The position numbers and the translations under genes are program-made. Shown in pieces: positions 3,080 to 45,937 of a stretch of 64,000 bases of DNA; within the stretch, counting starts at the first letter, position 1, and each line of letters starts with the position of its first letter. The stretch is from Promethearchaeota archaeon (GTDB lineage Archaea; Asgardarchaeota; Lokiarchaeia; Sigyniarchaeales; SOKP01). The stretch covers positions 1 through 64,000 of the forward strand of contig JAFGOA010000215.1 in assembly GCA_016926735.1 (NCBI GenBank). The letters are read 5' to 3'. Below the pieces are notes generated by a model. It was not told the origin of the DNA. It saw only the letters and a list, made by a program, of their open reading frames with translations, and did not search any database.

Positions 3080-5974
3080 ATGAAAAGGAGTAATATTATA
3101 GGTGTTAAAAAAAGGTTTTTATTATGTGTATTAATTATCAATTTTTCAATTGGTATTTTTACATTTAATACGATACTAAATGATAATCCATCTTATGTTG
3201 AGGATAATAGTGTTGCATCATATTCAAAAATCTTCTATGAGGATACAGAAGGTAATGCGACCGATATATTCGTTGATGGCGATCTTGCTTATTTAGCTGA
3301 TGGAATATCTGGTCTTGCTATAATCAATATTTCTGATCCTTTAGAACCTCAAATTATAGGTTATGAAGATACAGATGGTTATGCTAATGGAGTTTTCATA
3401 TATGGAAATATAGCATATATAGCAGATGGACATTCTGGTCTGGCAATAATTAATATAACTAATCCTTTAGAACCTCAAATTATCGATTATGAAGATACAA
3501 ATGGTTATGCCAATGGAGTTTTTATAGATGGTAATTTTGCTTTCATAGCAGATGGTTCATCTGGTCTGGCAATAATCAATATAACTAATCCTTTAGAGCC
3601 TCAAATTATAAATTATGAAGATACAGATGGTTATGCAAACGGTGTTTTCATAGATGGTAATTATGCCTATATAGCAGATGGCCCATCTGGTCTTGCTATA
3701 ATCGATATAACAAATCCTATAGAACCACAAATAATTAGTTATAAAGATACAGATGGATATGCGAATAATGTCTTTATTGATGGGGATTTTGCTTATATAG
3801 CTGATGGGGTATCAGGAATTACAGCGATAAATATAACATATCCTGCTATACCCGCCTATATTTCTTCAATGTTACTTAATAGTAGTGCTGTAGATATAAG
3901 TATTGATGGGGATTATGCATATCTTTCATGTAATACTACAGGATTGGCGATAATTAATATAACAGATCCATTTATTTTTGGAGTTCCATCTTATGAATAT
4001 ATTGATACTCATATTGTTCAAGGTTTATGTATTGATGGTAATTATGCTTTTATTGCGGGTGCGGATTCAGGTATCATTATCACTGAGATTTCAAGAATAA
4101 TATCCCCTATTGATATATATTCAGAAACGGTGCTAAGTAACTTAGAGCATGTTCGTGTAAAAGGTAATTTTGCTTATGTAACTAGGATGGATGGTTCATT
4201 GTTTACATTTGATATAACCAATCCAACCGCACCTATAAATCTTGGTTATACTCTTTTATCTGGATCTTTATCAAGACTTGATATCGAAGGTGATTATCTA
4301 TACGTTGCTGCTGGAGGAGGAACGAACCCTTTATATGGAGGATTATGTATTGTAGATATATCAAATCCTAAAAGTCCTGTATTAAGGGCAAGGATAAAGG
4401 GAAATAATTCTGCTATAGCAATTTCTGTTGATGGTGATCTTGCTTATGTTGGAGATGGAAATGCTGGGCTACTTATCGTGAATATAAGTAATCCTATGAA
4501 TCCAAATATACTAAGTCATATGGATACTAATGGTATTGCCTATGATGTTATTTCTTATGATAATTATGTCTATATTGCTGATGGCGGAGGTGGTTTAGCC
4601 GTTATCGATGTTAGTAGGCCAGATGCTCCAATTAACATTACTCAATTAGATTGGGGGCGCTTTGCATTAAGTCTTTCTATCAGTGGTCATTATCTATATA
4701 TAGGTTGCGGTTCATACCTGGCGGTCTTTGATATTTCAATCCCATATGATCCTATTTTATTAAAATCAATATATACAGGATCTAGTAATTATGATATAAA
4801 AATAAGTGGAAATTATATATATATATCTGGTAGGGACGATGGAATACTTATAATAAATATAAAAGATCCGAGAAATCCTATAATTGAAAGTCAAAAAGCA
4901 ATTGATAGTGATCCTATGGGTATTGATATTAATGGAAATTATGCATATTTAACTGGATTTAGTACTGGATTATTTGAAGTTATTCAAATAAAAGAGAGGA
5001 CTGATAGAGAGGTTCCAGTATTATTAGAAATTGCCAGCGATTTAGTCGTAGATTTTGGATACACAGAAGGAGAATTTACATGGATCGCGGATGATTCACA
5101 TCCATATAATTATACAATTATCCTTGAAAATATAGGTCTAATAGAGGGACCATTGGTATGGCAAAGTCATACTCCTATAATTTTTTATATTGAAGAAGGA
5201 TATTCAATTGGAGATTATTTTTTTATTATCAATATAACAGATGAATATAATCATTTTATAACAGATAGGGTAAAGTTGACGGTAAGAGATCCTGATAATC
5301 CTATTATCCAAGACTCTCCTGATGATCTAATAATTTGTTATGATTATCAAAATCTCGATTTAATTTGGAATGTGTCAGATTTATATCCTGATTTATATTA
5401 TATTTATCATGATGATTTAGGATTAATGGAAGGACCAAAATCTTGGGATAGTGAATTTCCTATTTCTTACTTAGTACCCGAAGGATTAAACATTGGAGAA
5501 CACATTTTTTATATTAATTTGACTGATGAATATGATAATTCGATAGTTGATAACGTTTCGATTATGATAGAGGATTGGATTGATCCAATCTTTATTGATA
5601 AACCTTCTGATTTAACAATAAATTTAGGGTATACAGGTGTGTCTCTCTCATGGAAACTAATCGATATGACTCCTGATCTCTATACTCTTGAACTTTTAGG
5701 AACGGGTACTTTGATCTATCCATCTAATTGGAATAATAATACTAAAATTACATATTTTATTCAAGATGGGTTACCTCTTGGAAATTATACCTTTGTAGTA
5801 CATTTTGAAGATAAATTTGGGAATATTGCCTCAGATGAGGTTAACATCATTGTAAAAAGCAGACCTATTGAGAGAGGAATATCTTTTGGGTTCTATTTCA
5901 TCGGATTTTTACTTATTGGACTGATATCAATTGTAATCGTTCAAAAAAGAAGAATGATGATAAATTCTCAATAA
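3080..5974 (+). CDS. Cell-surface LVIVD-repeat beta-propeller protein with three Ig-like domains and C-terminal TM anchor
   Basis: About 14 repeats of V.G.YAY.ADG.SGL.II.I..P; signal peptide follows MKRS (ATG 3080, preferred over 2939); three ~95-aa repeats; tail ISFGFYF...QKRR. Confidence 0.85.
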   Translation: MKRSNIIGVKKRFLLCVLIINFSIGIFTFNTILNDNPSYVEDNSVASYSKIFYEDTEGNATDIFVDGDLAYLADGISGLAIINISDPLEPQIIGYEDTDGYANGVFIYGNIAYIADGHSGLAIINITNPLEPQIIDYEDTNGYANGVFIDGNFAFIADGSSGLAIINITNPLEPQIINYEDTDGYANGVFIDGNYAYIADGPSGLAIIDITNPIEPQIISYKDTDGYANNVFIDGDFAYIADGVSGITAINITYPAIPAYISSMLLNSSAVDISIDGDYAYLSCNTTGLAIINITDPFIFGVPSYEYIDTHIVQGLCIDGNYAFIAGADSGIIITEISRIISPIDIYSETVLSNLEHVRVKGNFAYVTRMDGSLFTFDITNPTAPINLGYTLLSGSLSRLDIEGDYLYVAAGGGTNPLYGGLCIVDISNPKSPVLRARIKGNNSAIAISVDGDLAYVGDGNAGLLIVNISNPMNPNILSHMDTNGIAYDVISYDNYVYIADGGGGLAVIDVSRPDAPINITQLDWGRFALSLSISGHYLYIGCGSYLAVFDISIPYDPILLKSIYTGSSNYDIKISGNYIYISGRDDGILIINIKDPRNPIIESQKAIDSDPMGIDINGNYAYLTGFSTGLFEVIQIKERTDREVPVLLEIASDLVVDFGYTEGEFTWIADDSHPYNYTIILENIGLIEGPLVWQSHTPIIFYIEEGYSIGDYFFIINITDEYNHFITDRVKLTVRDPDNPIIQDSPDDLIICYDYQNLDLIWNVSDLYPDLYYIYHDDLGLMEGPKSWDSEFPISYLVPEGLNIGEHIFYINLTDEYDNSIVDNVSIMIEDWIDPIFIDKPSDLTINLGYTGVSLSWKLIDMTPDLYTLELLGTGTLIYPSNWNNNTKITYFIQDGLPLGNYTFVVHFEDKFGNIASDEVNIIVKSRPIERGISFGFYFIGFLLIGLISIVIVQKRRMMINSQ
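3236..3830 (+). repeat. Coding tandem repeat, 126-bp period, ~5 copies
   Basis: Units start at 3236, 3362, 3488, 3614, 3740 (tatga(a/g)gatac...) and are highly similar at DNA level. Confidence 0.85.
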
Positions 5975-5983
5975 TTTTTTTTT
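5975..5983 (+). terminator. Oligo-T archaeal terminator
   Basis: T9 tract immediately after the stop codon, between convergent genes. Confidence 0.5.
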
Positions 5984-6002
5984 AATTTTATAAAAATTAT
6001 AA

Positions 6003-6530
6003 TTATATATATATAATTTGAAAGTTAATTTTATCTCTAGTTAATGTTAGAAAGGCATATGAATTTAAATTTGTAAATCTTTTATCTGTTGGTGTACCTG
6101 GATTGAAATAATATTTTCCTTCTCTTTTTTCATTAATAGGCTTATGAGTATGACCAAAGATTATAATATCATAGTTTTTTAAATCAAATTTCTTATTTAA
6201 TCGTTCTATTATACCGTGTGGTCCACCTTCTCCATGAGTTAAAAATATTTTATATCCTAATATCTCGATTACCCTTTTTTTAGGTAGAATTTTAGAGATA
6301 CTTAGATCATCCATATTTCCAGCAACACTAATAATTTTATCTTTTCCAAAAGTATTGACTAAATAATTATATGTTTCTATTGTTGTGTGATCGCCCAAAT
6401 GAAAAATAAAATTCACTTTTTTTTTCTTAAAATCATCAATAATTGAATCTGGTATATTTTGACATCTAGAAGGAATATGTGTGTCTGAAATAAGGCCAAT
6501 TACTACTTGTTCTTTATCTGAATTAATCAT
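6003..6530 (-). CDS. YfcE/MJ0936/Vps29-family metallophosphoesterase
   Basis: SDTH, HLGD, GNMD, THG, GHTH, NPG motifs. Confidence 0.9.
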   Translation of the reverse strand: MINSDKEQVVIGLISDTHIPSRCQNIPDSIIDDFKKKKVNFIFHLGDHTTIETYNYLVNTFGKDKIISVAGNMDDLSISKILPKKRVIEILGYKIFLTHGEGGPHGIIERLNKKFDLKNYDIIIFGHTHKPINEKREGKYYFNPGTPTDKRFTNLNSYAFLTLTRDKINFQIIYI

Positions 6531-6620
6531 TAAAATTCAATTTGTAAGAATCATTATTATTATTAATATAAAATAATGAAAAATAAAAGAATAAATAAAT
6601 TAAAACTAAATAAAAGCAAT

Positions 6621-9600
6621 TTATTCTTCAAGTTCTTTTGCGCATTTACCAATAGCACAAACAAAATCATCTTCATATAGATTAATAACTCTGACTCCTT
6701 TTGCTTTTCTATGGGTTAGCCGTATTGAATCAACAGGAACTCTAATTAATTGTCCTTGTTCGGTTCCTATTAAGAGATCCTCATCTTTAACTGTCATCTT
6801 TATAGCTATAACTTGATCATTATTTTCTCGATCAAGTTTAATATTATGAACTCCTTTTGCGCCTCTTCCAGTTTTTCTATATTCTTTAATGTAGGCTCTT
6901 TGACCATATCCATTTTGAGTAAGAGTTAACACAATTTCATCATTAGTAACAAGAAGACAATCAATTACCTCATCATTTTCCCTTAAATCAACCCCTTTTA
7001 CACCCATAGAAGTACGTCCTAACTCTCTGAGCTCTGATTCATCAAATCTTATTGCATATCCTTGTTTTGTAGCAATAAAAATATCCTGTAATTCATTAGT
7101 AATTTTCTTCACACTGATTAACTTATCATCTACTCTAATCTTTTGTGCTCTAATACCTGTTTTTTGGATTTTAGAGAATTTGCTTAATGATATTTTTTTA
7201 ACAATTCCCTTTTTAGTAACCATAATTAGCATTTCATTTGTATCAAAATTATTAATAGGAATCATTTCTGAAATTTCTTCACCTTTTTGAAGTTTGATGA
7301 TATTAACAATTGGTTTTCCTTTAGCAGTTCTTTTTTGAAGTGGTATTTGAAAGGCTTTTTTGGAATATATCCTCCCTTTTGAGGTGAAAAATAATATTGT
7401 ATCATGTGTGGAACATACAAAAAGATCTTTAATAAAATCTTCTTCTCGAACGGTCATTCCCTTTTTACCACGACCGCCTCGTTTTTGAGAACGATATTCT
7501 TCTAAAGAAACTCGTTTAATGTATTGATCATTTGAAAAGATAATTATGTTTGGTTCCTTTTTAATTAAATCTACTCTTTCGATTTCTCTAACAGCTGGTT
7601 CATCTTGGGCTATGATCTCTGTTTTTCTTTTATCTCCATAGATTTTTATTAATTCATTTAATTCATTTTTAATGATTTCTAATCTTAATTCTTTTTTCGC
7701 TAGAATTTGTTTATATTTTTTAATATCTTGTTTGAGTATTTTAGCCTCTTCCTTTAGCTTTTCTGTTTCTAAATTAGTTAAACGAGAAAGAGTCATGTTT
7801 AAAATGGCTTTAACCTGAATATCTGTAAATTCAAATCTTTCTTGTAGTCTAGTTTTAGCTTCTTCGGTATCTTTAGAAGATTTTATTATTTGAACTACTT
7901 CATCTATATTATCAAGAGCGATCAGTAATCCTTCGACTTTATGAAGTCTATCTTGAGCTTTTTTAAGGTCAAATTCAGTTCGTCTGTAAATTATTTGTAA
8001 TCTATGTTCAATATACTCTTGAATTAATTCTTTTAAGTTTAATATTTTTGGTTGTTTACCCTCATTAACTAACACAAGATTTACTATACTAAAGCTAGAA
8101 AGAAGTCTTGTTCTTTTAAATAATACATTTTTGATAATTTCTGGTTGTGCATCTTTTTTTAATTCTAATACAATTCTCATTCCTTTTCGATCTGATTCAT
8201 CTCTCAAATCTTTTATATCTTTTAGAATTCCATCTCTTATTAGTTTGGCAATTGATTCGATTAAGACGGCCTTATTTTGTAAATAGGGAATTTCAGATAT
8301 TATTAAATTATTAATTTTACCTTTTTGTTCCTCTTCGATTTTAGCCATTAAGGTAACATTCCCTTGTCCAGTTGCATATGCATTGTAGATTCCTGAAGGA
8401 TTTGTAATAATACCTCCTGTAGGAAAATCAGGACCCTTAATGATTTCTATTAATTCTTCTAATGATATATCCGGATTGTCTATTGTAGAAATTATACCAA
8501 GAGATATCTCCATAATATTATGAGGAGGCATAGATGTAGCCATCCCTACAGCAATTCCTTTTGTACCATTTATTAATATATTTGGTAGTTTAGCAGGTAA
8601 AGATGTAGGTTCTGTTGTGCTATCATCAAAATTTGGTTGAAAATCTACTGTTTCTTTTTGAATGTCTTCGATTAGTTCATTTGCTATTTTTGATAATCGA
8701 GCCTCCGTATACCTATATGCTGCTGGAGGATCCCCATCTACAGAACCAAAATTACCTTGTGGATCTATTAATGGATATCTTAAAGAAAAATCTTGACCCA
8801 TTCGAACAAGTGAATTATAAACCGCCATATCACCGTGAGGATGATAATTCCCAAGACAATTATGAACTATCATACCATTAGCTATAAATTGGTGATCATC
8901 TCTTACTTGAATATCGTAGGTTTTTTTGGCTTTATATTTATTTATTGACTTTATTTTTATAAAAAAGAAATCTTGTTCTATTATTTCATTTATAATTGGT
9001 AAATATTTTGAACCAATTAATTCCATTTTATTTTTGATATTTAATTTTTCAATTGTAGATTTGTATATCTTAATTTTATTCTTTAGATCCTTTTGATATC
9101 TAATTTTAGTACCATCTGGATATTTTATTCCAATTCTGATTTTTTTCCCAGATTTATCAGTATACCATCCTCCCCCTAAATGTTTCTCAGAAAATTCAGT
9201 AAAGATATATTTTCCTATAAAGGGAATTATATCGTATTTGGAAGGATTATATTTTAGTTTCTTGGATAATCTTTTAATTTTATCTGGATTATAAATATGA
9301 ATTTCTCTTTTTATTTTTGCATAATCGTTACCAGTTATCTCCAAAGAATATAAATCATAGTTTGGTTTGATTTTTCTACCTTTATAATGGTGAGTTTTCT
9401 TTTTATTTAAATAAATTGTTGAATTTATTCCTAAGCTAAATAAAATGATTTGAAAATCTCTTAAGAATTTTTCAGATATTGAGGAGATATTTATAACGTT
9501 CCGATTCTTATGAACATGACCATCACCTTCTAAATAACCACTAAAGAATGAATAAATGATTTTTTTTGAGGTATTTTTAAGAAAATTAGGTATTTTTATA

Positions 9601-15765: not shown

Positions 15766-18588
15766 TTATTTTATTAAAAATTTGTATCTTTTATTTAGTA
15801 AAAGAATAACAGAAAGGATTCCGATTGATGAAAACAATATTAAAAGATCATATCCCGGTATCGAGTCTTCTTCTGAATCAACGATAATATGTATAGTAGT
15901 TTCACAATAATTTCCATATAGATCATAAGCTCTGATAATTAAATCATAATTACCCTTTTCCAAGGTTGTTATATTAGTAATTTCTCCAGTGCTATTATCA
16001 ATACTGAAATCTTCTTCATTATTTATCCAATAATATGCAATCCCAGAAAAATCAGAAGCATCAATGTCATAATAAAAGTCTTCTCCATGCATTACAATAT
16101 GGCTTAATTTTATATCACCCCAAACCGGATCTGTTGTATCTGAAATTGAGATCTTAATTATAGCACTGCAATTTTGATTATATGGGTCAAACACACAAAT
16201 TTCAATCCAATATTCACCTACAGCAAGATTACTTGCGTTTGTTATGAGACCATTTGAATTAGTATTAAAAAGTGTAGAATTTACAGAGTAATGATCAATT
16301 CCAAATGAGCTAAAAGCATTTAATTGATATGAAAAAGCATTTCCAAGTTCAATAGTTTGATTTAAAGGGATATCATTCCAAATTGGTGGTGGAGCATCAT
16401 GATTATAACATATTGGATATCTATCTTGACTATCTGATGAACCTTCAATATTATTATATGGAAGATCCCCTATATTATCAAAATTTATATCCCTTCCAGA
16501 ATAATCGTCCCAATAATTTCCAATTGTTCCATTATCCCATTGATTATTATTTCCATCATTAATTGCGTTTATATTATTTCCTGTAAAATTATTTAGATAT
16601 ATTGTATTGTTCTCAGATTCGCTTGTAAAATGGATTCCTTCATTATTTTCAAGTATACTGTTATTGTAAATAGACAATCCCTCTACTCCTAAAAAATAAA
16701 TACCTATTTCGACATTGGATTTAATAGTATTATTCTTTATAATCCCCAACGTGGTAGAACCCAAATAAATACCATTTTCACCATTATTATCTATTGTATT
16801 ATCTACTATTGTTGTATAATTTGAATTACTAACATGTATTCCATCAAAGGTATTATCTCTAAAAAGATTATTTGATATTTCCAATTGGTTGTTTAATAAT
16901 AAAAATATTCCATTCCAATGATTATGTATAATTGTATTTCCTCTTAATATTATATATTCGATATTCGTGCTTAAATAGTTAATTATACCATTTTCACCAT
17001 TTTCATAAATTGTATTATTAATAAAAGATATTGAAGAGCAATCAAAATATATACCATCATAGTCATTATTATATATTGAATTATTTACAATACTTACATC
17101 CTTACAATACATAATATCTATTCCGTATGCTTTATTGAATGATATTATATTCTCAGTGATATTAGGAAAATAAGAATACTTCATAATAATACCAATAGAA
17201 TTATTAACCAAAATATTGTTATAAATAATAAGATCATAACAATAATAAGCTATAATAGGAATGGCATTCATTGTATTTGAAATATTAAATTCAGAAATCT
17301 CTGAATTATTACAATTGATTACAATTATTTGTCCTGGATCTCCTTTATATGTAAAATCTAATGTATTTAATCCTGTTCTATTATAATAATGATAAATTGT
17401 TCTTCCATTTAATTTATTAGAGGTTGTTATGGTCCTATTACTTTCGGCTTTATTTGGAGTTATATAAATACCACAGTTTGTCATATTATTTCCATCAATT
17501 ATATAAAGTCCTCCACTTGTAGATATAAAAATACCAGTCACCCCAATAGTACTACCCATGAGATCATTATTTGTGCAATTTATCTGCTCACATTCTTCAA
17601 GATAAATATTGTTAGAAAAATCTATAACAGTATTATTATAAATAGATATATTCTCTCCATTTACACATATTCCATAGAGTTGCCCTTTTTCTATATGATT
17701 TCCTTCAATAGTTGCATTTAATGATGCTTTATCAAGATAAATTCCTCGATAACCGGCGAATTTTATAAAATTATTTTTTATTTTTACATTCTCACTATTA
17801 GTATAAATCGCATTATATTGGATTCTTATATGTTTTAAAGTATTTCCTTCTATAGTATAATCATTTCCTAAGAGAAAACAAAACCCTTCTCTTACATAAT
17901 TAATATCATTATTACATACTGTTGAATAATTACAATTTTTCATAATGATTCCATAGCTATAAGATGAATTGGAATTTTCGATTATATTATTCAAAATTAT
18001 TGAATTAATACATGTATCCAATCTTAATCCGCCCCAGATATTGGAATCTAAAATATTACTTTGAATAGTAATACTACTAGAATTCAAAATAGAGATACCA
18101 TGTCCATTATTATCCGAACAATTATTACTGTATATCAATCCATTTTTAACATTTTCAAGAACAATACCACCTCTAGTTAAATTACTATATTGTGCATAGA
18201 TTGAATTATAAAGATAACAATTTGAAATATTAAAATATTTTTCTGAGTTAATTATATGTATAGGTATTGAATTTTCTTCTCCATTAATAGCCAAATCCTT
18301 AATTATGTATGGACTTTCTATTGTTCCCAAACCAGAGCACCAAGTTTGTTTTTCAGCCCATGTCCAATTTTTTGCATTCATGCCTGTTGCTGTTCCATTT
18401 ATGAAGATTGGTGATTCATTAATTGCAGAATTATTTATTAGAGAATTATTAAAATTGGATTCCTTTTCAATATTCAAGGTATTATTATGTTCCATATAGG
18501 ATAATAAAGCTATAATATTAGGAACTATAATTAGAATGAAACATAAGATTTTTTTTTTTAATTTAAATTTCGTCATTTTAACATTCAT
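15766..18588 (-). CDS. Surface right-handed parallel beta-helix (NosD/CASH-like) protein with Ig-like domains and Loki-CTERM sorting tail
   Basis: Signal peptide, many N..GI...N.I..N repeats, GNYWDDY, two Ig-like repeats, tail IPGYDLLILFSSIGILSVILLLNKRYK. Confidence 0.88.
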   Translation of the reverse strand: MNVKMTKFKLKKKILCFILIIVPNIIALLSYMEHNNTLNIEKESNFNNSLINNSAINESPIFINGTATGMNAKNWTWAEKQTWCSGLGTIESPYIIKDLAINGEENSIPIHIINSEKYFNISNCYLYNSIYAQYSNLTRGGIVLENVKNGLIYSNNCSDNNGHGISILNSSSITIQSNILDSNIWGGLRLDTCINSIILNNIIENSNSSYSYGIIMKNCNYSTVCNNDINYVREGFCFLLGNDYTIEGNTLKHIRIQYNAIYTNSENVKIKNNFIKFAGYRGIYLDKASLNATIEGNHIEKGQLYGICVNGENISIYNNTVIDFSNNIYLEECEQINCTNNDLMGSTIGVTGIFISTSGGLYIIDGNNMTNCGIYITPNKAESNRTITTSNKLNGRTIYHYYNRTGLNTLDFTYKGDPGQIIVINCNNSEISEFNISNTMNAIPIIAYYCYDLIIYNNILVNNSIGIIMKYSYFPNITENIISFNKAYGIDIMYCKDVSIVNNSIYNNDYDGIYFDCSSISFINNTIYENGENGIINYLSTNIEYIILRGNTIIHNHWNGIFLLLNNQLEISNNLFRDNTFDGIHVSNSNYTTIVDNTIDNNGENGIYLGSTTLGIIKNNTIKSNVEIGIYFLGVEGLSIYNNSILENNEGIHFTSESENNTIYLNNFTGNNINAINDGNNNQWDNGTIGNYWDDYSGRDINFDNIGDLPYNNIEGSSDSQDRYPICYNHDAPPPIWNDIPLNQTIELGNAFSYQLNAFSSFGIDHYSVNSTLFNTNSNGLITNASNLAVGEYWIEICVFDPYNQNCSAIIKISISDTTDPVWGDIKLSHIVMHGEDFYYDIDASDFSGIAYYWINNEEDFSIDNSTGEITNITTLEKGNYDLIIRAYDLYGNYCETTIHIIVDSEEDSIPGYDLLILFSSIGILSVILLLNKRYKFLIK

Positions 18589-18622
18589 TTCATAATTTTA
18601 AATAAGTTATGTTTTAGATGAT

Positions 18623-18646
18623 ATTTAAAACACCTTGGACCAAAAA
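18623..18646 (-). promoter_or_regulatory. GTCC-box + TATA promoter of the Loki-CTERM beta-helix gene
   Basis: Sense strand TTTTTGGTCCAAGG-TGT-TTTAAAT; near-identical to 22851-22873. Confidence 0.6.
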
Positions 18647-18685
18647 TGATATTTTTTTTCATTTATGATAATTATACAAAATAAG

Positions 18686-21600
18686 TTATTCTCTATTCTT
18701 TAGCATTGTTTCTATTAATTTAATTCTTTCTTTTGGTTCCAAATTAATTAATTCTCTTATAAAACGTCCTTTTTCCTTTAAGGTTAGATCAAGTAAATCA
18801 ATCTTTTTAAATAGAGAAGGTGTAATTGAACCCATCATATAATTATGTATTTCAGGTATTTCATTGATTTTTTTATTTGATTCAATATAGTCTTTTAAGT
18901 AGGGCATATTTTTCATTAAGGATTCATATGTATCATCTTTTGATTTATGAATCGTCTCATATTGATCAATTATATCTATATTTTCATTAAAACTATTTTT
19001 TGAACTAGAAATTCTATTATCTATTTTTGATAAATTTTTTGAAGTAGTACTTAATCGAGGTTCTATTAATTTTTTCTTTTCTTCTCTTTTTTTAATTGTG
19101 TCTAAAATATTATTTCCTAAAAATAAGCTTCCTATTAGTAAACATGAAAAAATAATTATTATAATGATAATCTGAAGTGTTAAATTTTGAGTATGTATTG
19201 TTTGAAAAACAAGTGGAAAGTGATCTACAGAATTTGCCGAACCATTTATAAAATAGGGGATGTCACCAATACCGTCATTATTTGAATCTATTCCTACGTA
19301 ATCATCCCAATAATTTCCTATTACTCCATTATCCCATTGATTAAGATAACCATCATCTTTTGCATTCATTTGATTTCCTATGAAGTAATTTAAATATATT
19401 GTGTTATTATCTGAATACCCATCATTAATAATGATACCAATATCATTACAGAATATATTATTATAACTAATATTCAACTCAGAACTGTGGGATATTAACA
19501 ATCCATGTTCTTTATTATATGTAATTGAATTATTGAAAATTATCCCTCTATCACCATAATCTAAATTAATCCCTTTGTGTTCATTATAACTGATATTATT
19601 TTGATTTATTTCGCAAATACTTGAAATTAATTCAACTCCATTTTCATGATTATATAGTATATTATTTAATATAATTTTAATAAGATCTCCTTCACCATCT
19701 ATTCCATTTCGAGTATTATTATTAATAAGATTTCTGGTTATGTTTATCTCGTTGATATTATAATAATTAATACCATTTAAATTAAAAGATATAATATTAT
19801 TATCTATAACAATGCTTTGAGAACTTACACAATAAATTCCATTATTGATATTATTGGAAATCTCATTATTTTGAATTGTGATATTTGAGCATGAAAATAA
19901 TATTATTCCTCCTCCATATATTAGATCTATATTATTGATTATCGAATTATTACATTCAATTAATACAATTTTACCAGGATTTCCTAAATAAGTAAAATTG
20001 TCTGCAATAAGATTGGTTTTATTTGTATACCAATAGATTAATTTTCCATTAATTTTGTTTGTTAATGGAACATATAGAGTGGAAAGACCACCACCATAAT
20101 CATCTAGAAAAGTTATATCACTGTTGATAAGAGTATTATTTGAAATAACTAATCCATCATTATCGAAATTAAGATAAATTCCATTACTAGTATTTTGAAT
20201 TGTATTATTATAAAATAAAGAATCTATACAATAACTTATTGAAACACCATTATTATTATCTGAGATATTATTATAACTTATTTTACTATAATGTGAATTT
20301 GAGATTAAAATTCCATATTCTTTATTAAAGCTTATATTATTATAAGAAATCATACTAAAACGGGAATTTAGCATTAAAATTCCATATTCACTATTATTTG
20401 TTATGTGGTTATCTACAACACTGCAATTATAAGCATTTCTATTAAAAATTCCACTCATATTATTATTTAATATAGTATTTAATTTTATTGTACTATTTTT
20501 AGTAATATCAGCAATAAAGTTAACACCATATTCACCATTACCTATTATTTTATTACAAGTTATATTTGTTGAATCTGCATCAATATAGATACCATTGAGA
20601 CTATTATTTCTTATTGTATTGTTATATATTATATAATATGTCCCTGATTTGATATTTATTCCTTCTTCTTTATTATTCTCTATAAAATTTCTTTCTATTA
20701 ATGTAGAATTTCCAGATGACCATGAAGCGATTCCATCTTGGGAATTGAAAGAGAGTGTATTATTGATAATTCTGCATTTATATTCTGATGAAGCTCCAAA
20801 TCTAAAAATCGCGCTTTTATAATTATAGCTTAGGTTACAATTCATTATTGTTATATTATTGCAGTAAAATATTGAAATAGCATCTGAACTATTAGAGATC
20901 TCTAGGTCAGTAATAATTGTATTATTACAATTAACTAAAATAATCTGGCCAGGAGCACCGTTTATATTGAAATCAGAAAAACCTAGATTAGTTGTATTAT
21001 AATAATAATAAATTGCTTTCTCATTAACTCTATTTGATATATCAATATTAAATGAAGTGAGAAGAACTAAATCAATGGTTTGTCTTATTAAAATCCCACA
21101 ATTAGTCATATTATTATTCTTTATAATATAATTTTGACCATATGTATAGAAATAAATCCCATAACCATTATTCATTATATTATTGTTAGATATATTACAG
21201 AATTTTGATTTGGCATTTAGTACAATTCCCCATCCACAATTAGATACAATATTATTAAAAATTGTACTATTATCAGAAGAGATTTCAATTCCATAATATT
21301 CAACTCCTTCTATGGTATTTTCTTCAATAAAACATTTATTACCACTAGAAACTCTAATTCCCCTATCTGTAATATTGTATAAATAATTATTTTTAATTGT
21401 AATATTGAAACCATTGGAAACAGAAATACCATTATCATTCACCCAACTTATATTATTATTTTCTATTTCCATATCTTTCCCTTCTAATACTAATCCTCTT
21501 TTAACATCATGGATTTCATTATTTCTGATATTTGTATAATTACTTGGTTTAAATATACAAATTCCATCTATATGTGATGAATAAATAGTACGTATTGTAT

Positions 21601-22357
21601 AATTATTAATTATTTTATTATTGAAAATACTAGTATTAAGACAAGATATTAGTTCAACTCCATCATCAGCATTGAAGTTTAAATTATTTTTATCTATATC
21701 AATTTTATTACAATATACCGAATGGATACTATCACCATCATCAGTATTAAAATCAAAAAAATTCCCATTATTGGTTATATTATTATATTTTAAAGATATA
21801 TCTTGACTTTCCTCCAAGTAAACCCCGTGATATTCATTATTTTTTATATTATTACTCTCTATAGTTATATTTAGACAGGTCTTAATATATAATCCATAAT
21901 AACCATTTTCATTCATTGTTGAATTCTTAATCAATATATTACTACTATCATTTATTTTCACACCCGCATTTCCTTCAATAGAACCTGATAAAGAAACACT
22001 ACAATTTTCAATAATCAAATAAGCATTAGAGTTTACAATTGTTATACAACTTCCTAGACTATCTCCATCTATTATAATATCTAAGATTTTATATGGATTA
22101 CCAACTGTACCTTCTCCAGAACACCACGATTGAGTTTTTGCCCATGTCCAATTTTGAGCTCCTATTCCTGTTGCTGTACCATTTATAAATATGGGAGTTT
22201 CAAGTATTATTGAGGAGTTTAAATTACTATAATCCCGTTGTTCTCTTTGTATTTCCTTATTTGGGATCATATAAGATGTATATGATAATAAAAAGAGAAT
22301 TATTATAAGAATTGTATATTCCTTATTCCTATTTTTTCTATTTGGAATTATGTTCAT
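18686..22357 (-). CDS. Single-pass receptor-like protein: beta-helix ectodomain, TM, ~140-aa cytoplasmic tail
   Basis: Same N-terminal cap as its neighbour (PIFINGTATG..A.NWTWA..Q.WCSG.GT), beta-helix repeats, TM IIIIIIIFSCLLIGSLFLG, helical tail ending FIRELINLEPKERIKLIETML. Confidence 0.85.
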   Translation of the reverse strand: MNIIPNRKNRNKEYTILIIILFLLSYTSYMIPNKEIQREQRDYSNLNSSIILETPIFINGTATGIGAQNWTWAKTQSWCSGEGTVGNPYKILDIIIDGDSLGSCITIVNSNAYLIIENCSVSLSGSIEGNAGVKINDSSNILIKNSTMNENGYYGLYIKTCLNITIESNNIKNNEYHGVYLEESQDISLKYNNITNNGNFFDFNTDDGDSIHSVYCNKIDIDKNNLNFNADDGVELISCLNTSIFNNKIINNYTIRTIYSSHIDGICIFKPSNYTNIRNNEIHDVKRGLVLEGKDMEIENNNISWVNDNGISVSNGFNITIKNNYLYNITDRGIRVSSGNKCFIEENTIEGVEYYGIEISSDNSTIFNNIVSNCGWGIVLNAKSKFCNISNNNIMNNGYGIYFYTYGQNYIIKNNNMTNCGILIRQTIDLVLLTSFNIDISNRVNEKAIYYYYNTTNLGFSDFNINGAPGQIILVNCNNTIITDLEISNSSDAISIFYCNNITIMNCNLSYNYKSAIFRFGASSEYKCRIINNTLSFNSQDGIASWSSGNSTLIERNFIENNKEEGINIKSGTYYIIYNNTIRNNSLNGIYIDADSTNITCNKIIGNGEYGVNFIADITKNSTIKLNTILNNNMSGIFNRNAYNCSVVDNHITNNSEYGILMLNSRFSMISYNNISFNKEYGILISNSHYSKISYNNISDNNNGVSISYCIDSLFYNNTIQNTSNGIYLNFDNDGLVISNNTLINSDITFLDDYGGGLSTLYVPLTNKINGKLIYWYTNKTNLIADNFTYLGNPGKIVLIECNNSIINNIDLIYGGGIILFSCSNITIQNNEISNNINNGIYCVSSQSIVIDNNIISFNLNGINYYNINEINITRNLINNNTRNGIDGEGDLIKIILNNILYNHENGVELISSICEINQNNISYNEHKGINLDYGDRGIIFNNSITYNKEHGLLISHSSELNISYNNIFCNDIGIIINDGYSDNNTIYLNYFIGNQMNAKDDGYLNQWDNGVIGNYWDDYVGIDSNNDGIGDIPYFINGSANSVDHFPLVFQTIHTQNLTLQIIIIIIIFSCLLIGSLFLGNNILDTIKKREEKKKLIEPRLSTTSKNLSKIDNRISSSKNSFNENIDIIDQYETIHKSKDDTYESLMKNMPYLKDYIESNKKINEIPEIHNYMMGSITPSLFKKIDLLDLTLKEKGRFIRELINLEPKERIKLIETMLKNRE

Positions 22358-22374
22358 TTTAATCTAACCTCTTT

Positions 22375-22782
22375 TTATTCTTTTTTACAAATATAATATA
22401 GAATTTTATTATTCACATCTAATTTTTTTAAATATTGATATTTTTTTAAAATGGTAAGATGCCAGATAATTTTGCTTTTTTTTATTTTAAAATAGTTAGT
22501 TAATTCTTCAATTGATTTACCAGGATTCTTTTCTAAATATTTTAGTATCTTTAATCTTAGAGATAAATCGATAATCTCATGATTTCTTAATATTGGTGCC
22601 ACAGTAAATATATTTTCCTTAATCATTTGTTTAAATAAACGTTCTATTTCATTTTTATTTATATTTTTTATTATTTCTTCGTCATTATATATTTCTTTAA
22701 TTATTTGTTGCATTTTTGTTTTTTTTTTTAATCTTATTATTGTATCGATTTTATTTCTTATTTCTTTTTCAATTGGAATCAA
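22375..22782 (-). CDS. Winged-HTH transcriptional regulator (two wHTH units)
   Basis: LRLKILKYLEKNPG...IIWHLTIL; 17 nt gap to the receptor gene. Confidence 0.75.
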   Translation of the reverse strand: MIPIEKEIRNKIDTIIRLKKKTKMQQIIKEIYNDEEIIKNINKNEIERLFKQMIKENIFTVAPILRNHEIIDLSLRLKILKYLEKNPGKSIEELTNYFKIKKSKIIWHLTILKKYQYLKKLDVNNKILYYICKKE

Positions 22783-22850
22783 TACAATTCACTTAATTTA
22801 GATCTTTAAAATATATTTGATATAACTATAATAACAATAAATTTAATAGA

Positions 22851-22873
22851 ATTTAAAGAGCCTTGGACTAAAA
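22851..22873 (-). promoter_or_regulatory. GTCC-box + TATA promoter of the wHTH-receptor operon
   Basis: Sense strand TTTTAGTCCAAGG-CTC-TTTAAAT. Confidence 0.6.
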
Positions 22874-22931
22874 GTGAAATTATTAATATTGATTTAAATT
22901 ATTTTTTCCTCCCTAATCATTTTTATTTATC

Positions 22932-23582
22932 CTAAAAAGGATCTTTGTAAAATTTATATCTTTTTTTTTTTTCCCCATTAACCTTCTTTATTAAATTCAA
23001 TTCTACTAATTGATTTAAATATTTTTTTAATGTAGAATAATGAATCGATAATAATTCTGATAAAACTGTTGGTCTTAAGGGTGTACCTTTATTTTTTAAT
23101 AAATTAATAATAGACCTTATTTTCTCATTTTTTAGGATTATATATAAAATATCATCCTTTGGAGTAGATTCAAATCTAAATATGTTTTTTTGACTTTGAT
23201 ACTTTACAATACGAATAAATTGAAAATGTTCCATAATTTTTAGGTGCCAGAAAATACTATTACTCCCAATACTGAATTCTTTTTTGATATCATTAATATT
23301 AGCTCCTGGATTATTTTTTATATATTCATAAATATTTCTTCGAATGGGTAATTCTAATACATCGTCCTTTACTAATCTAATTCCTATGACTATTTTTTTT
23401 TTTTTTACCAGATTTTTTACAATTATTTCAATTTTGTTTCTATTAAAATTATCATTTGATTTTAAACGATAAGTTATAAAATTAATTATATCAATCAAGT
23501 TGTTAATTGTTTTTTTTTTAATATATTCCTTTATAATTTTATAAACAATTTGTTCGTCTTTATCAAATAACTCTTTTTTCAT
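22932..23582 (-). CDS. Multi-wHTH transcriptional regulator; paralog of 45218..45937
   Basis: RRNIYEYIKNNPG...IFWHLKIME plus a C-terminal HTH (LSELLSIHYSTLKKYLNQL). Confidence 0.82.
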   Translation of the reverse strand: MKKELFDKDEQIVYKIIKEYIKKKTINNLIDIINFITYRLKSNDNFNRNKIEIIVKNLVKKKKIVIGIRLVKDDVLELPIRRNIYEYIKNNPGANINDIKKEFSIGSNSIFWHLKIMEHFQFIRIVKYQSQKNIFRFESTPKDDILYIILKNEKIRSIINLLKNKGTPLRPTVLSELLSIHYSTLKKYLNQLVELNLIKKVNGEKKKRYKFYKDPF

Positions 23583-45217: not shown

Positions 45218-45937
45218 TTACTTTTTTACTAAATTTTCATTCAAATTTTCTCTTAATTTTGGAGAAAGCATGATCAATTTTTCAGGTTTATCGAAAAATT
45301 GGATTATATCTTGGTTTAAGAAATTTTTAATTCTATAATTGACATTTTCCCTTTTTTCATTTATCATTTTATAAATATTTGGTTTCTTTAGATGTGCATG
45401 ATTGAGTAATAGTCTAATAATTTTCCTATTGAGCTCATCTTTCATAAGGAAATTCAATATACATAAGTTTTTATCTAATTCTTCTGGAATAAAGAGGGTA
45501 TGATTTCCAATTTTAACTTTTTTAATATAATTAAATTTAAGTAACATCTCTAGATGCCATATAAGTTGGCCTCCACTACCAGACTTGCTTGTAAATACAT
45601 TTTCTCTAATATATGTAAATGTAGCACCTTGATTTTTATATATTACTTTAACAATCTTTTTTCTATAGAGATTTGATAAGATTGTTTCTTTTGTATGCTT
45701 AGAACCATTTATCAAAATTTTATTATTAATTAAGAATTGAATGATTTCTAAAATACGTGTTCCTCGTAATTCTAATTGTTTTACAGCGATATCATAAAGA
45801 TTTTTGATTTTGAGCACTCTATTTTTGCTTATCATTTCTTGAGCAATTGTAATAACCTTCTGTACATGGGAATGGTCTAAAGCTAATGAACCACTTCTAT
45901 TATTCTGTTTGGTTTCAATTCTATTAAAGTTCATCAT
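45218..45937 (-). CDS. Multi-wHTH transcriptional regulator; paralog of 22932..23582
   Basis: IL.N.YR.KI...I..N.G...LIWHLEMLLKFNYIK, plus a C-terminal HTH. Confidence 0.8.
   Translation of the reverse strand: MMNFNRIETKQNNRSGSLALDHSHVQKVITIAQEMISKNRVLKIKNLYDIAVKQLELRGTRILEIIQFLINNKILINGSKHTKETILSNLYRKKIVKVIYKNQGATFTYIRENVFTSKSGSGGQLIWHLEMLLKFNYIKKVKIGNHTLFIPEELDKNLCILNFLMKDELNRKIIRLLLNHAHLKKPNIYKMINEKRENVNYRIKNFLNQDIIQFFDKPEKLIMLSPKLRENLNENLVKK

What the first reader, a model, noticed from the sequence alone, without database searches (positions are those of the whole stretch)
15766..23582. Candidate trans-membrane signalling module: wHTH regulators + receptor whose ectodomain is a paralog of the target surface protein
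Seen, all on the minus strand: triple-wHTH gene, short wHTH gene, beta-helix protein with TM and ~140-aa cytoplasmic tail, then a paralogous beta-helix protein with Loki-CTERM and no tail. The wHTH-receptor operon and the target gene have nearly identical promoters, TTTTRGTCCAAGG-N3-TTTAAAT (22851-22873, 18623-18646). I see no such box upstream of the triple-wHTH gene. Inference: this parallels bacterial ECF or SigI-RsgI logic. A membrane sensor holds a wHTH activator by its tail and releases it on binding an extracellular ligand, switching on the cognate surface protein and itself. I know of no description of such a system in Asgard archaea.
Basis: inference. Interest (0 to 1): 0.8.

Follow-up and report, generated by a model that had tools for sequence, protein, structure and literature searches.

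The report
Asgard receptor tail paired with winged-helix regulator
An Asgard archaeon encodes a cell-surface receptor whose small, undescribed inner tail is nearly always found next to, once fused to, and is predicted to grip a winged-helix DNA-binding-type protein, which points to a kinase-free route from the cell surface to gene control not described in archaea.

Summary
On the minus strand lie a triple winged-helix (wH) gene, a short wH gene, a 1223-aa beta-helix receptor (TM plus ~140-aa tail), and a 940-aa tail-less paralog. Two near-identical boxes sit 6 nt upstream of a TATA box.

The last ~90 aa of the receptor are a conserved, unannotated domain. In 40 loci from other genomes chosen on the tail alone, 34 have a P0001-family wH gene directly adjacent. 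In the own genome 8 of 11 tail genes do. One ORF fuses receptor, tail and triple wH. Tail and wH identities co-vary (Mantel r 0.82).

A complex model scores 0.78 against 0.00 for the best control. It puts the tail on wH1 and on the wH2 recognition helix.

The box (TTTCAY-TTTTN-GTCCA, 6 nt, TATA) is not private to this locus. Within the genus it precedes receptors, wH genes and neighbouring exported-protein genes. Both boxes of this locus persist, slightly diverged, in a relative whose intergenic DNA does not align.

My reading is a receptor/wH-regulator signalling cassette. Physical pairing is well supported. DNA binding, ligand-triggered release and activation are inferred.

The tail domain is nearly confined to one family of Promethearchaeota. 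I found no paper describing it. This scan has noted the same kind of module on other DNA.

The parts
22932..23582 (-). P0001, triple winged-helix protein (wH1 aa ~8-70, wH2 ~79-136, wH3 ~141-211). It is the family-wide partner of the tail domain and has its own promoter without the box.
   Evidence: pLDDT 92.5; alignment A2; adjacency; complex
22851..22879 (-). Box 1: TTTCAC-TTTTA-GTCCA, then AGGCTC, then TATA box TTTAAAT. It lies upstream of the P0002-P0003 operon.
   Evidence: The G001 orthologous site reads TTTCACTTTTGGTCCA AAGCTC TTTAAAT, and the G003 site is identical to box 1
22375..22782 (-). P0002, short wH protein (wH1-wH2 only; ArsR-type HTH_5). Its stop is 17 nt before the receptor start, so it is probably co-transcribed.
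   Evidence: profile positions 9-136 of 223; 30% identical to P0001 residues 45-124, including the I-W-H-L helix
18686..22357 (-). P0003, single-pass receptor: N-terminal anchor, right-handed beta-helix ectodomain, TM, cytoplasmic tail.
19109..19183 (-). C-terminal transmembrane helix of P0003 (aa ~1059-1083).
   Evidence: position of the hydrophobic stretch; read directly from the sequence
18689..18973 (-). Conserved tail domain of P0003 (last 95 aa, six short helices). Motif: EK-x2-F-I-x-E-L-x2-L-x-P-x-E-R. R1211 is invariant across all 38 aligned tails. F1199 is nearly invariant in both alignments. E1195, L1206, P1208 and E1210 reach 90% only in the 11-sequence own-genome alignment.
   Evidence: A3; distribution; pLDDT 80; no Pfam, PDB fold or PDB sequence match
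18623..18651 (-). Box 2: TATCAT-TTTTG-GTCCA, then AGGTGT, then TATA box TTTAAAT, 35 nt before the P0004 start codon.
   Evidence: The G003 ortholog reads TTTCAT. The G001 ortholog reads TTTCAATTCTAGTCCA ATGGGT TTTTTATAT
15766..18588 (-). P0004, tail-less paralog of the receptor ectodomain, with two cadherin-like modules and a Loki-CTERM-like anchor (aa 910-940 = 15769-15861). It is the candidate regulated surface protein.

Best explanation
This is a transmembrane signalling cassette without a kinase. P0003 is a single-pass surface receptor. Its last ~90 residues fold into a small helical domain that docks onto wH1 and onto the recognition helix of wH2 in a cognate multi-winged-helix protein. 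The partners here are P0001 and probably also its truncated paralog P0002. While docked, the wH protein is held at the membrane with its wH2 DNA-reading helix covered.

A change at the beta-helix ectodomain is proposed to alter this docking. The wH protein would then act at promoters carrying the bipartite box TTTCAY-N5-GTCCA placed 6 nt upstream of the TATA box. That position is where archaeal activators sit. The outcome would be control of the receptor operon itself and of the paralogous surface protein P0004.

Shown by computation: the pairing, from conserved adjacency, a fusion, parallel divergence and a controlled complex model; and the conservation and regulon-like spread of the box.

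Inferred: DNA binding to the box, the sign of regulation, and ligand-triggered release.
For: 1. Tail domain. P0003's C-terminus matches 10 other proteins of the own genome that carry different ectodomains: beta-helix, BNR-like repeats, or none.

2. Adjacency. In the own genome 8 of 11 tail genes have a family wH gene within 400 nt. Two of the three exceptions sit on contigs of 2.8 and 4.9 kb. The best 9 wH hits are 8 cassette genes plus one TM-wH fusion. In 40 loci from other genomes chosen on the tail alone, 34 have the wH gene directly adjacent on the same strand (E 1e-20 to 1e-85), and 4 of the 6 without are cut by a contig end. No third gene is conserved.

3. Fusions. L047 (G019) encodes beta-helix, TM, tail and triple wH in one 1111-aa ORF. 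The own genome also has TM-wH1-wH2-wH3 (C138) and at least 9 receptor-TM-wH2-wH3 proteins. Some of these carry the same repeat ectodomain as a tail-type receptor.

4. Parallel divergence. For 38 wH/tail pairs Mantel r is 0.82, and 0 of 2000 permutations reach it. For the 7 paralogous pairs of the own genome r is 0.81.

5. Complex model, P0001 plus the last 95 aa of P0003.
- Score 0.78; best of 3 controls 0.00.
- The mark was reached by 58 of 80 solved complexes and 2 of 110 mismatched pairs. These counts hold only roughly because my own alignments were used.
- The runs agree in at least 93% of contacts, and partner pLDDT is at least 82.
- The interface is P0001 residues 17-70 and 106-119 (including invariant W112/H113) against tail residues 15-95.
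- No similar solved complex was found by sequence or fold, so a pass from memory is unlikely.

6. DNA-binding type. Profile matches are only to DNA-binding wHTH families: ArsR, MarR, TrmB, IclR and HTH_24. The W-H-L helix is also kept in the fused forms that have no tail, so its conservation is not explained by tail binding alone.

7. Box. The exact 16-mer occurs 5 times in the own genome, against 0 for the reversed control. Four of these lie in tail cassettes. In congeners it precedes receptors, a triple-wH gene and runs of exported-protein genes: 5 consecutive genes in G001:C110 and 4 in G002:C214. Spacing to the TATA box is constant at 6 nt. Both boxes persist, slightly diverged, in the G001 ortholog, where only one 754-nt stretch aligns, at 76% identity.
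Against: - No experiment and no RNA data exist.
- The box is shared by several cassettes that each have their own wH paralog. It is therefore not a private operator, and it could be read by another factor.
- One close cassette (C207) shows no box.
- The box was not found in cassettes of other genera: 1 weak hit in 29 loci.
- The whole-protein fold search finds only generic tandem-wH proteins. These include protein-binding ones such as ScpB and ESCRT-II, at TM-scores of 0.25-0.34.
- The invariant wH2 residues lie in the predicted protein interface, so wH2 could be a pure docking domain.
- The fused forms suggest the output may work while tethered, which removes the need for release.
- The single tail-wH fusion comes from a metagenome-assembled genome and could be a sequencing error at a stop codon.
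- Adjacency and mirror-tree signals are inflated by shared ancestry among related genomes.
Confidence: 0.55

Rival explanations
1. A membrane-tethered transcription factor that is never released. The tail and the wH protein form a constitutive complex, in effect a split ToxR/CadC-like one-component regulator. The ectodomain signal changes its activity at the membrane. wH3, and in fused forms wH2-wH3, binds DNA while anchored.
For: L047 fuses tail and wH in one chain. C138 and at least 9 other proteins of the own genome anchor wH2-wH3 or wH1-3 directly to TM segments. wH3 is outside the predicted interface. The invariant residues of both partners lie in the interface, as expected for a permanent complex.
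Against: In some cassettes the only partner is a short wH1-wH2 protein lacking wH3 (C42, G001 L057, G019 L048). Its single DNA-type helix would then be covered permanently. The W-H-L helix is conserved in tail-less fusions, which argues that it reads DNA when free.
Confidence: 0.2
2. The wH proteins are not transcription factors. They are adaptors that couple surface-protein tails to a cytoplasmic machine for sorting, anchoring, cytoskeleton or GTPase control. The shared promoter box is read by some other factor.
For: Tandem wH proteins that bind helical peptides are common: ScpB and ESCRT-II appear among the fold hits. The wH2 'recognition' helix is used for protein contact in the model. Earlier notes of this scan describe tail-binding wH modules fused to longin and appendage domains in other Asgard genomes (not tested here).
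Against: All sequence-profile matches are to DNA-binding regulator families, and none is to ESCRT-II or ScpB families. No conserved third gene accompanies the pair. The cassette genes themselves carry a conserved promoter element, which fits autoregulation.
Confidence: 0.15
3. The promoter similarity comes from gene duplication, or from a general promoter type of exported-protein genes (for example a site for a TFB/TBP paralog or a global regulator). On this reading it says nothing about the wH proteins.
For: The core TTTTNGTCCA plus 6 nt plus TATA also precedes genes without a nearby cassette: a solute-binding protein on C75 and an unknown gene on C1. Many box genes are tandem paralogs with the same N-terminus, MKHRKIT.... 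Strict spacing to the TATA box is typical of core promoter elements.
Against: The box also precedes non-homologous genes: the short wH, a triple wH in G002, receptors, and DUF285, beta-helix and unknown exported proteins. Only the box and the TATA box are conserved while the flanks diverge beyond alignment. Four of the 5 exact copies in the own genome lie in tail cassettes, which cover about 2-3% of the genome by my estimate.
Confidence: 0.25

Closest known systems
SigI/RsgI biomass-sensing pairs of Acetivibrio (Clostridium) thermocellum, and ECF sigma/anti-sigma pairs in general
   Same: Many paralogous pairs per genome. A single-pass membrane sensor holds a cytoplasmic transcription regulator by a small inner domain. 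The sensor ectodomain resembles the proteins being regulated. The pair is autoregulated from a shared promoter motif.
   Different: No sigma-70 or anti-sigma domain is present (Pfam scans), and archaea have no sigma factors. The regulator is a triple winged-helix protein, and the inner domain is a helical C-terminal domain with no known family. The box lies upstream of a TATA box rather than being a -35/-10 pair.
SdpI/SdpR of Bacillus subtilis (membrane sequestration of an ArsR-family autorepressor). The mechanism is cited from general knowledge and was not read here.
   Same: An ArsR-like winged-helix protein is encoded with a membrane protein that captures it, and the operon is autoregulated. 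P0001 and P0002 give weak SdpR-profile matches.
   Different: The SdpR profile scores are 29 and 22 bits against a cut-off of 100, so these are not members. SdpI is polytopic with no large ectodomain. SdpR is a single-domain repressor. The box position here suggests activation.
ToxR/CadC-type membrane-bound one-component regulators, and archaeal ArnR/ArnR1 (general knowledge)
   Same: A winged-helix or HTH output is tied to a membrane sensor. The fused forms in this genome (C138, C41:63499-65748 and others) and L047 have this layout.
   Different: There is no OmpR-type Trans_reg_C domain. In the cassette studied the output is a separate polypeptide that docks non-covalently on a dedicated tail domain.
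BlaR1/BlaI and MecR1/MecI (general knowledge)
   Same: A membrane sensor and a winged-helix regulator share an operon, and a neighbouring target gene carries the same operator.
   Different: The tail has no protease domain. There is no Penicillinase_R or Peptidase_M56 match.

Membership tests
ArsR/SmtB-type winged helix (Pfam HTH_5 PF01022; NCBIfam HTH_metalloreg NF033788) | Profile match above the curated cut-off | tested here: inconclusive
   P0002 scores 33.0 bits on HTH_5 against a cut-off of 22, so the domain is met. On NF033788 P0002 scores 23.4 and P0001 24.9 against a cut-off of 55, so the subfamily is not met.
ArsR/SmtB-type winged helix | Metal- or metalloid-binding Cys/His sites | tested here: not met
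   P0001 has no cysteine. P0002 has a single one, near its C-terminus (sequences).
SdpR autorepressor family (NF033789) | Profile score of 100 bits or more | tested here: not met
   29.4 bits (P0001) and 22.1 bits (P0002).
Sigma/anti-sigma (ECF, SigI/RsgI) | Sigma-70 region 2/4 domains in the regulator, and an anti-sigma domain in the sensor | tested here: not met
   The Pfam hit lists contain no sigma or anti-sigma family at E up to 0.1 for the four proteins or E up to 1 for 38 tails.
Loki-CTERM sorting domain (NF033507) | Profile score of 19.9 bits or more at the extreme C-terminus | tested here: not met
   P0004 aa 910-935 scores 17.3 bits. It resembles the domain but falls under the cut-off.
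NosD / right-handed beta-helix (PF05048, PF13229; TIGR04247) | Beta-helix repeat profiles, and the NosD equivalog-level score | tested here: inconclusive
   The Pfam repeats are strongly met (E 5e-78 and 6e-41). TIGR04247 scores 130 and 127 bits against a cut-off of 300. So the fold family applies, but these are not NosD proper.
The receptor-tail/multi-wH module itself (defined here) | C-terminal tail domain after a TM, and a P0001-family wH gene adjacent on the same strand | tested here: met
   Tail E 1.4e-24. P0002 is adjacent and P0001 is one gene further. The same layout occurs in C207 and in G001 L059 and L060.
ESCRT-II / ScpB tandem-wH adaptors | Sequence-profile membership (EAP30, ESCRT-II, ScpB families) | tested here: not met
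   None appears among the Pfam hits. The only link is generic fold resemblance, TM-score 0.25-0.33.

The most novel reading that the evidence does not exclude
This family of Promethearchaeota has evolved its own expandable receptor-to-gene signalling system, an analogue of bacterial ECF sigma/anti-sigma pairs built from unrelated parts. A universal ~90-aa receptor tail domain is read by a wH1-wH2 docking module, and that module masks its own DNA-reading helix while docked. wH3 or direct membrane fusion supplies output variants. Truncated wH1-wH2 proteins (P0002) and stand-alone soluble tail proteins (82-96 aa) act as competitors, which would give partner-switching control of a regulon of surface proteins.
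Probability: 0.3. Interest if true: 0.85.

Novelty: new variant of a known kind. Interest (0 to 1): 0.78.

Why it matters
How Asgard archaea sense their surroundings and control their unusually rich set of surface proteins is essentially unknown. Archaea are thought to rely mostly on one-component regulators and a few two-component systems.

A multi-copy receptor/regulator pair built from an undescribed tail domain and a triple winged-helix protein would be a new signalling route in the closest prokaryotic relatives of eukaryotes. The own genome has 11 tail genes, and one relative has up to 19 matches.

It is directly testable with two small soluble parts: a 95-aa tail and a 216-aa protein, plus a 29-bp DNA box. 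It also gives a handle on the regulon of Asgard cell-surface proteins, which matter for cell-cell contact and syntrophy.

Tried and rejected
- The search for related loci with alignment A2 failed because no stretch was conserved enough. With P0001 alone it returned only one near-identical metagenome contig.
- The box was sought in cassettes of other genera, and only one weak hit appeared in 29 loci. A k-mer screen of upstream regions there gave only footprints shared by orthologous loci (TCATTCCA near one conserved 266-270-aa tail gene), not a common motif.
- The third genomic match to the 23-mer (C49:493-515, two mismatches) lies inside an ORF beside a TnpB-like gene end, so I treat it as chance.
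- The fold search of P0001 gave only generic tandem-wH hits. The fold search of the tail gave nothing below E 4.5. PDB sequence searches gave nothing for the tail and one 77-aa 'putative DNA binding protein' (5duk) for wH2.
- Pfam has no family for the tail.
- A search for a conserved third gene such as a protease or kinase near 40 cassettes found none.
- Literature searches for Loki-CTERM, HVO_0163, and Asgard with membrane-bound or winged-helix signalling found no description of this module.
- A complex of the tail with P0002 was not run because the cap is one job.
Full report
**1. What is in the window**

The window is contig C41:1-64000 of a 3.88-Mb, 238-contig genome with about 25% G+C. 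A protein-atlas search places the wH family in Promethearchaeota, that is Asgard.

- **P0001** (22932-23582, 216 aa) folds with pLDDT 92.5 into three winged-helix units: helices 8-60; helices 79-119 with strands 123-136; and helices 141-194 with strands 198-211. Its profile matches are all to DNA-binding wHTH families.
- **P0002** (22375-22782, 135 aa from a TTG) is an ArsR-type wH protein (HTH_5, 33 bits). It is 30% identical to P0001 residues 45-124. On the family profile it covers positions 9-136 of 223, which is wH1-wH2 only.
- **P0003** (18686-22357, 1223 aa) has an N-terminal anchor, a long right-handed beta-helix ectodomain, a TM at about aa 1059-1083 and a ~140-aa tail.
- **P0004** (15766-18588, 940 aa) is its paralog at 32-36% identity, E 3e-60. 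It adds cadherin-like modules and a C-terminal anchor that falls just under the Loki-CTERM cut-off, 17.3 against 19.9 bits.

Two boxes match TTTTRGTCCAAGG-N3-TTTAAAT, at 22851-22873 and 18623-18645. In the whole genome the pattern has only these two exact matches. P0001 has no box upstream.

**2. The tail is a conserved domain, and it travels with the wH protein**

A search of the own genome with the tail found paralogous C-termini on other membrane proteins. Each of these lay beside a paralog of P0001.

With profiles built from 38 pairs, 8 of the 11 tail genes in the own genome have a family wH gene within 400 nt. The exceptions are two genes on contigs of 2.8 and 4.9 kb and one stand-alone 82-aa tail protein.

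The ectodomains differ between cassettes. They are beta-helix in C41, C207, C30 and C129, BNR-like repeats in C144, a zinc-ribbon protein with two tail repeats in C19, and nothing at all in proteins of 82-143 aa. The link is therefore between the tail and the wH protein, not between the beta-helix and the wH protein.

Whole-genome searches found the tail in 23 of 41 relatives. In a phylum-wide sample of 301 genomes it was in 56 of 68 genomes of the same family and almost nowhere else. Weak matches occurred in three other families.

I fetched 40 loci from other genomes chosen only on the tail match. Thirty-four carry a P0001-family gene directly adjacent on the same strand, with E from 1e-20 to 1e-85. 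Four of the other six are cut by a contig end. No third gene is conserved around the pair.

**3. Fusions**

One ORF in G019 (L047:7250-10582, 1111 aa) encodes signal anchor, beta-helix, TM, tail (aa 791-875), a 20-aa linker and the triple wH (895-1106) in a single chain.

The own genome also has a TM-anchored triple wH (C138, 376 aa). It has at least nine further proteins in which an ectodomain and one to three predicted TM segments are followed directly by wH2-wH3, at profile positions about 60-217, with no wH1 and no tail. Two of these lie in tandem from C41:63499, partly inside the window. Their repeat ectodomain is of the same type as that of the tail-type receptor on C144.

So wH2-wH3 is a recurrent cytoplasmic output of membrane receptors in this lineage. 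wH1 appears only where there is a tail to dock on, with C138 as the one exception.

**4. Co-divergence and modelled contact**

Pairwise identities of the 38 wH proteins and of their 38 neighbouring tails correlate, with Mantel r 0.82. None of 2000 permutations reaches that value. For the seven paralogous pairs within the own genome r is 0.81. This shows the pairs duplicate and diverge as units. Shared descent contributes to the signal.

The complex job was run with P0001 and the last 95 aa of P0003, both as 38-row alignments.

- The scores were 0.78, 0.79 and 0.76, and the best of three controls was 0.00.
- The mark was reached by 58 of 80 solved complexes and 2 of 110 mismatched pairs. These counts hold only roughly because my own alignments were used.
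- The runs agree in at least 93% of contacts, and partner pLDDT is at least 82.
- The model supports binding but does not show it.
- No similar solved complex exists by sequence or by fold, so a pass from memory is unlikely.

The interface is P0001 residues 17-70 (wH1) plus 106-119. The second stretch is the third helix of wH2, the canonical DNA-reading helix, and it holds the invariant W112 and H113. On the tail side the contacts centre on the two conserved C-terminal helices, which include the nearly invariant F71 and the invariant R83 of the tail (F1199 and R1211 of P0003). wH3 is free.

The W-H-L helix is conserved in the tail-less membrane fusions too. Its conservation is therefore not explained by tail binding alone. 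I infer that it reads DNA when free and is masked when docked.

**5. The box**

The exact 16-mer occurs 5 times in the own genome, and the reversed control occurs 0 times. The five sites are:

- before the P0002-P0003 operon;
- before the receptors on C30 and C129;
- before a DUF285/PKD exported protein that precedes a stand-alone tail gene on C184;
- before an exported protein at the end of contig C93.

Box 2 before P0004 has one mismatch here (TATCAT) and none in the near-identical G003.

In congeners the box precedes five consecutive genes on G001:C110, namely four exported-protein genes and one receptor. On G002:C214 it precedes four genes: two exported-protein genes, the triple-wH gene and the receptor.

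In the G001 ortholog of this locus both boxes are present in diverged form. TTTCACTTTTGGTCCA lies before the short wH gene, and TTTCAATTCTAGTCCA lies before the P0004 ortholog. Only one 754-nt stretch of that locus aligns, at 76% identity.

A looser core, TTTTNGTCCA plus 6 nt plus TATA but with GTAWAA in place of TTTCAY, precedes other genes:

- a 4460-aa protein next to the C153 cassette;
- the wH gene of the C19 cassette;
- a solute-binding/cadherin protein on C75;
- an unknown gene on C1.

The box is thus a genus-level regulon element for cassettes and exported proteins, not a private operator of this locus. Its two conserved blocks are about one helical turn apart, which would suit two tandem wH domains. 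This is inference. Its position just upstream of the BRE/TATA region is where known archaeal activators bind, which is general knowledge. I did not find the box in other genera.

**6. Mechanism and rivals**

Best reading, confidence about 0.55: a receptor/wH-regulator cassette in which the tail holds the regulator at the membrane and masks its wH2 DNA-reading helix. The ectodomain state decides how much regulator reaches the box promoters. Those promoters drive the receptor operon and the paralogous surface protein.

P0002 is the docking half without wH3 and is co-transcribed with the receptor. It would either be the receptor's own stoichiometric partner or compete with P0001 for the tail.

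The rivals are:

- a never-released, split ToxR-like complex (0.2);
- a non-transcriptional adaptor (0.15);
- independently of those two, the possibility that the box is read by another factor (0.25).

I put the pairing of tail and wH protein at about 0.85 or higher. DNA binding and release are open.

**7. Comparison with known systems**

By logic, the closest systems are SigI/RsgI and ECF sigma/anti-sigma pairs, SdpI/SdpR, BlaR1/BlaI and ToxR-type regulators. None is homologous. There are no sigma, anti-sigma, OmpR-type or protease domains. The SdpR profile scores are far under the cut-off. The tail has no Pfam, PDB sequence or PDB fold match.

Full-text searches found no description of this module.

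Earlier notes of this scan report the same kind of pair on other DNA. These include the C30 cassette of this genome and what appears to be the G001 ortholog of this locus. I used those notes as leads only.

**8. Verdict**

This is a new variant of a known kind of logic (a membrane sensor holding a transcription regulator), built from undescribed parts in Asgard archaea.

Noticed in passing
window 63499-64000, continuing to C41:65748 and C41:65841-68147 (L077:3500-5749 and 5842-8148): Two tandem genes of about 750 aa. Each has a signal anchor, a BNR-like repeat ectodomain, 2-3 TM segments and a wH2-wH3 module directly fused. They have no wH1 and no tail. At least three more copies lie elsewhere in the genome.
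   Followed up: partly
window 45218-45937 (minus strand): A second-tier triple-wH paralog (profile E 4e-25). Another first-reader note places it next to a 7TM-longin membrane protein. No tail-domain match was found nearby.
   Followed up: partly
L073 (G003:C236), corresponding to window 16221-18538: In the 92-95% identical relative G003, about 2.3 kb inside the P0004 ortholog is missing. Box 2, the first codons and the last ~150 codons remain. This is either a real deletion or an assembly collapse.
   Followed up: partly
L047:7250-10582 (G019:C27): A single 1111-aa ORF fuses beta-helix receptor, TM, tail domain and triple wH. It comes from a metagenome-assembled genome, so a stop-codon error is not excluded.
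   Followed up: partly
G000 C222:41132-41380 (L014), C184:385-675 (L015); G001 L058:8739-9002: Stand-alone soluble proteins of 82-96 aa that consist of the tail domain only. They are possible decoys or competitors for the wH proteins.
   Followed up: no
G000 C153:27685, C75:9012, C1:18846, C19:21043: A variant box, GTAWAA-TTTTR-GTCCA plus 6 nt plus TATA. It precedes a 4460-aa protein, a solute-binding/cadherin protein, an unknown 316-aa protein and a cassette wH gene.
   Followed up: partly
L003 (G000:C49:1-2015): A two-mismatch copy of the 23-mer box (493-515) lies inside an ORF next to the 3' end of a TnpB-like gene with a zinc-ribbon motif. It is probably chance.
   Followed up: partly
L005:7365-9170 (G000:C30): Downstream of the C30 cassette lie a SIR2-like domain fused to TPR repeats (601 aa) and a prolyl-oligopeptidase-family gene. 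Neither has a box.
   Followed up: no
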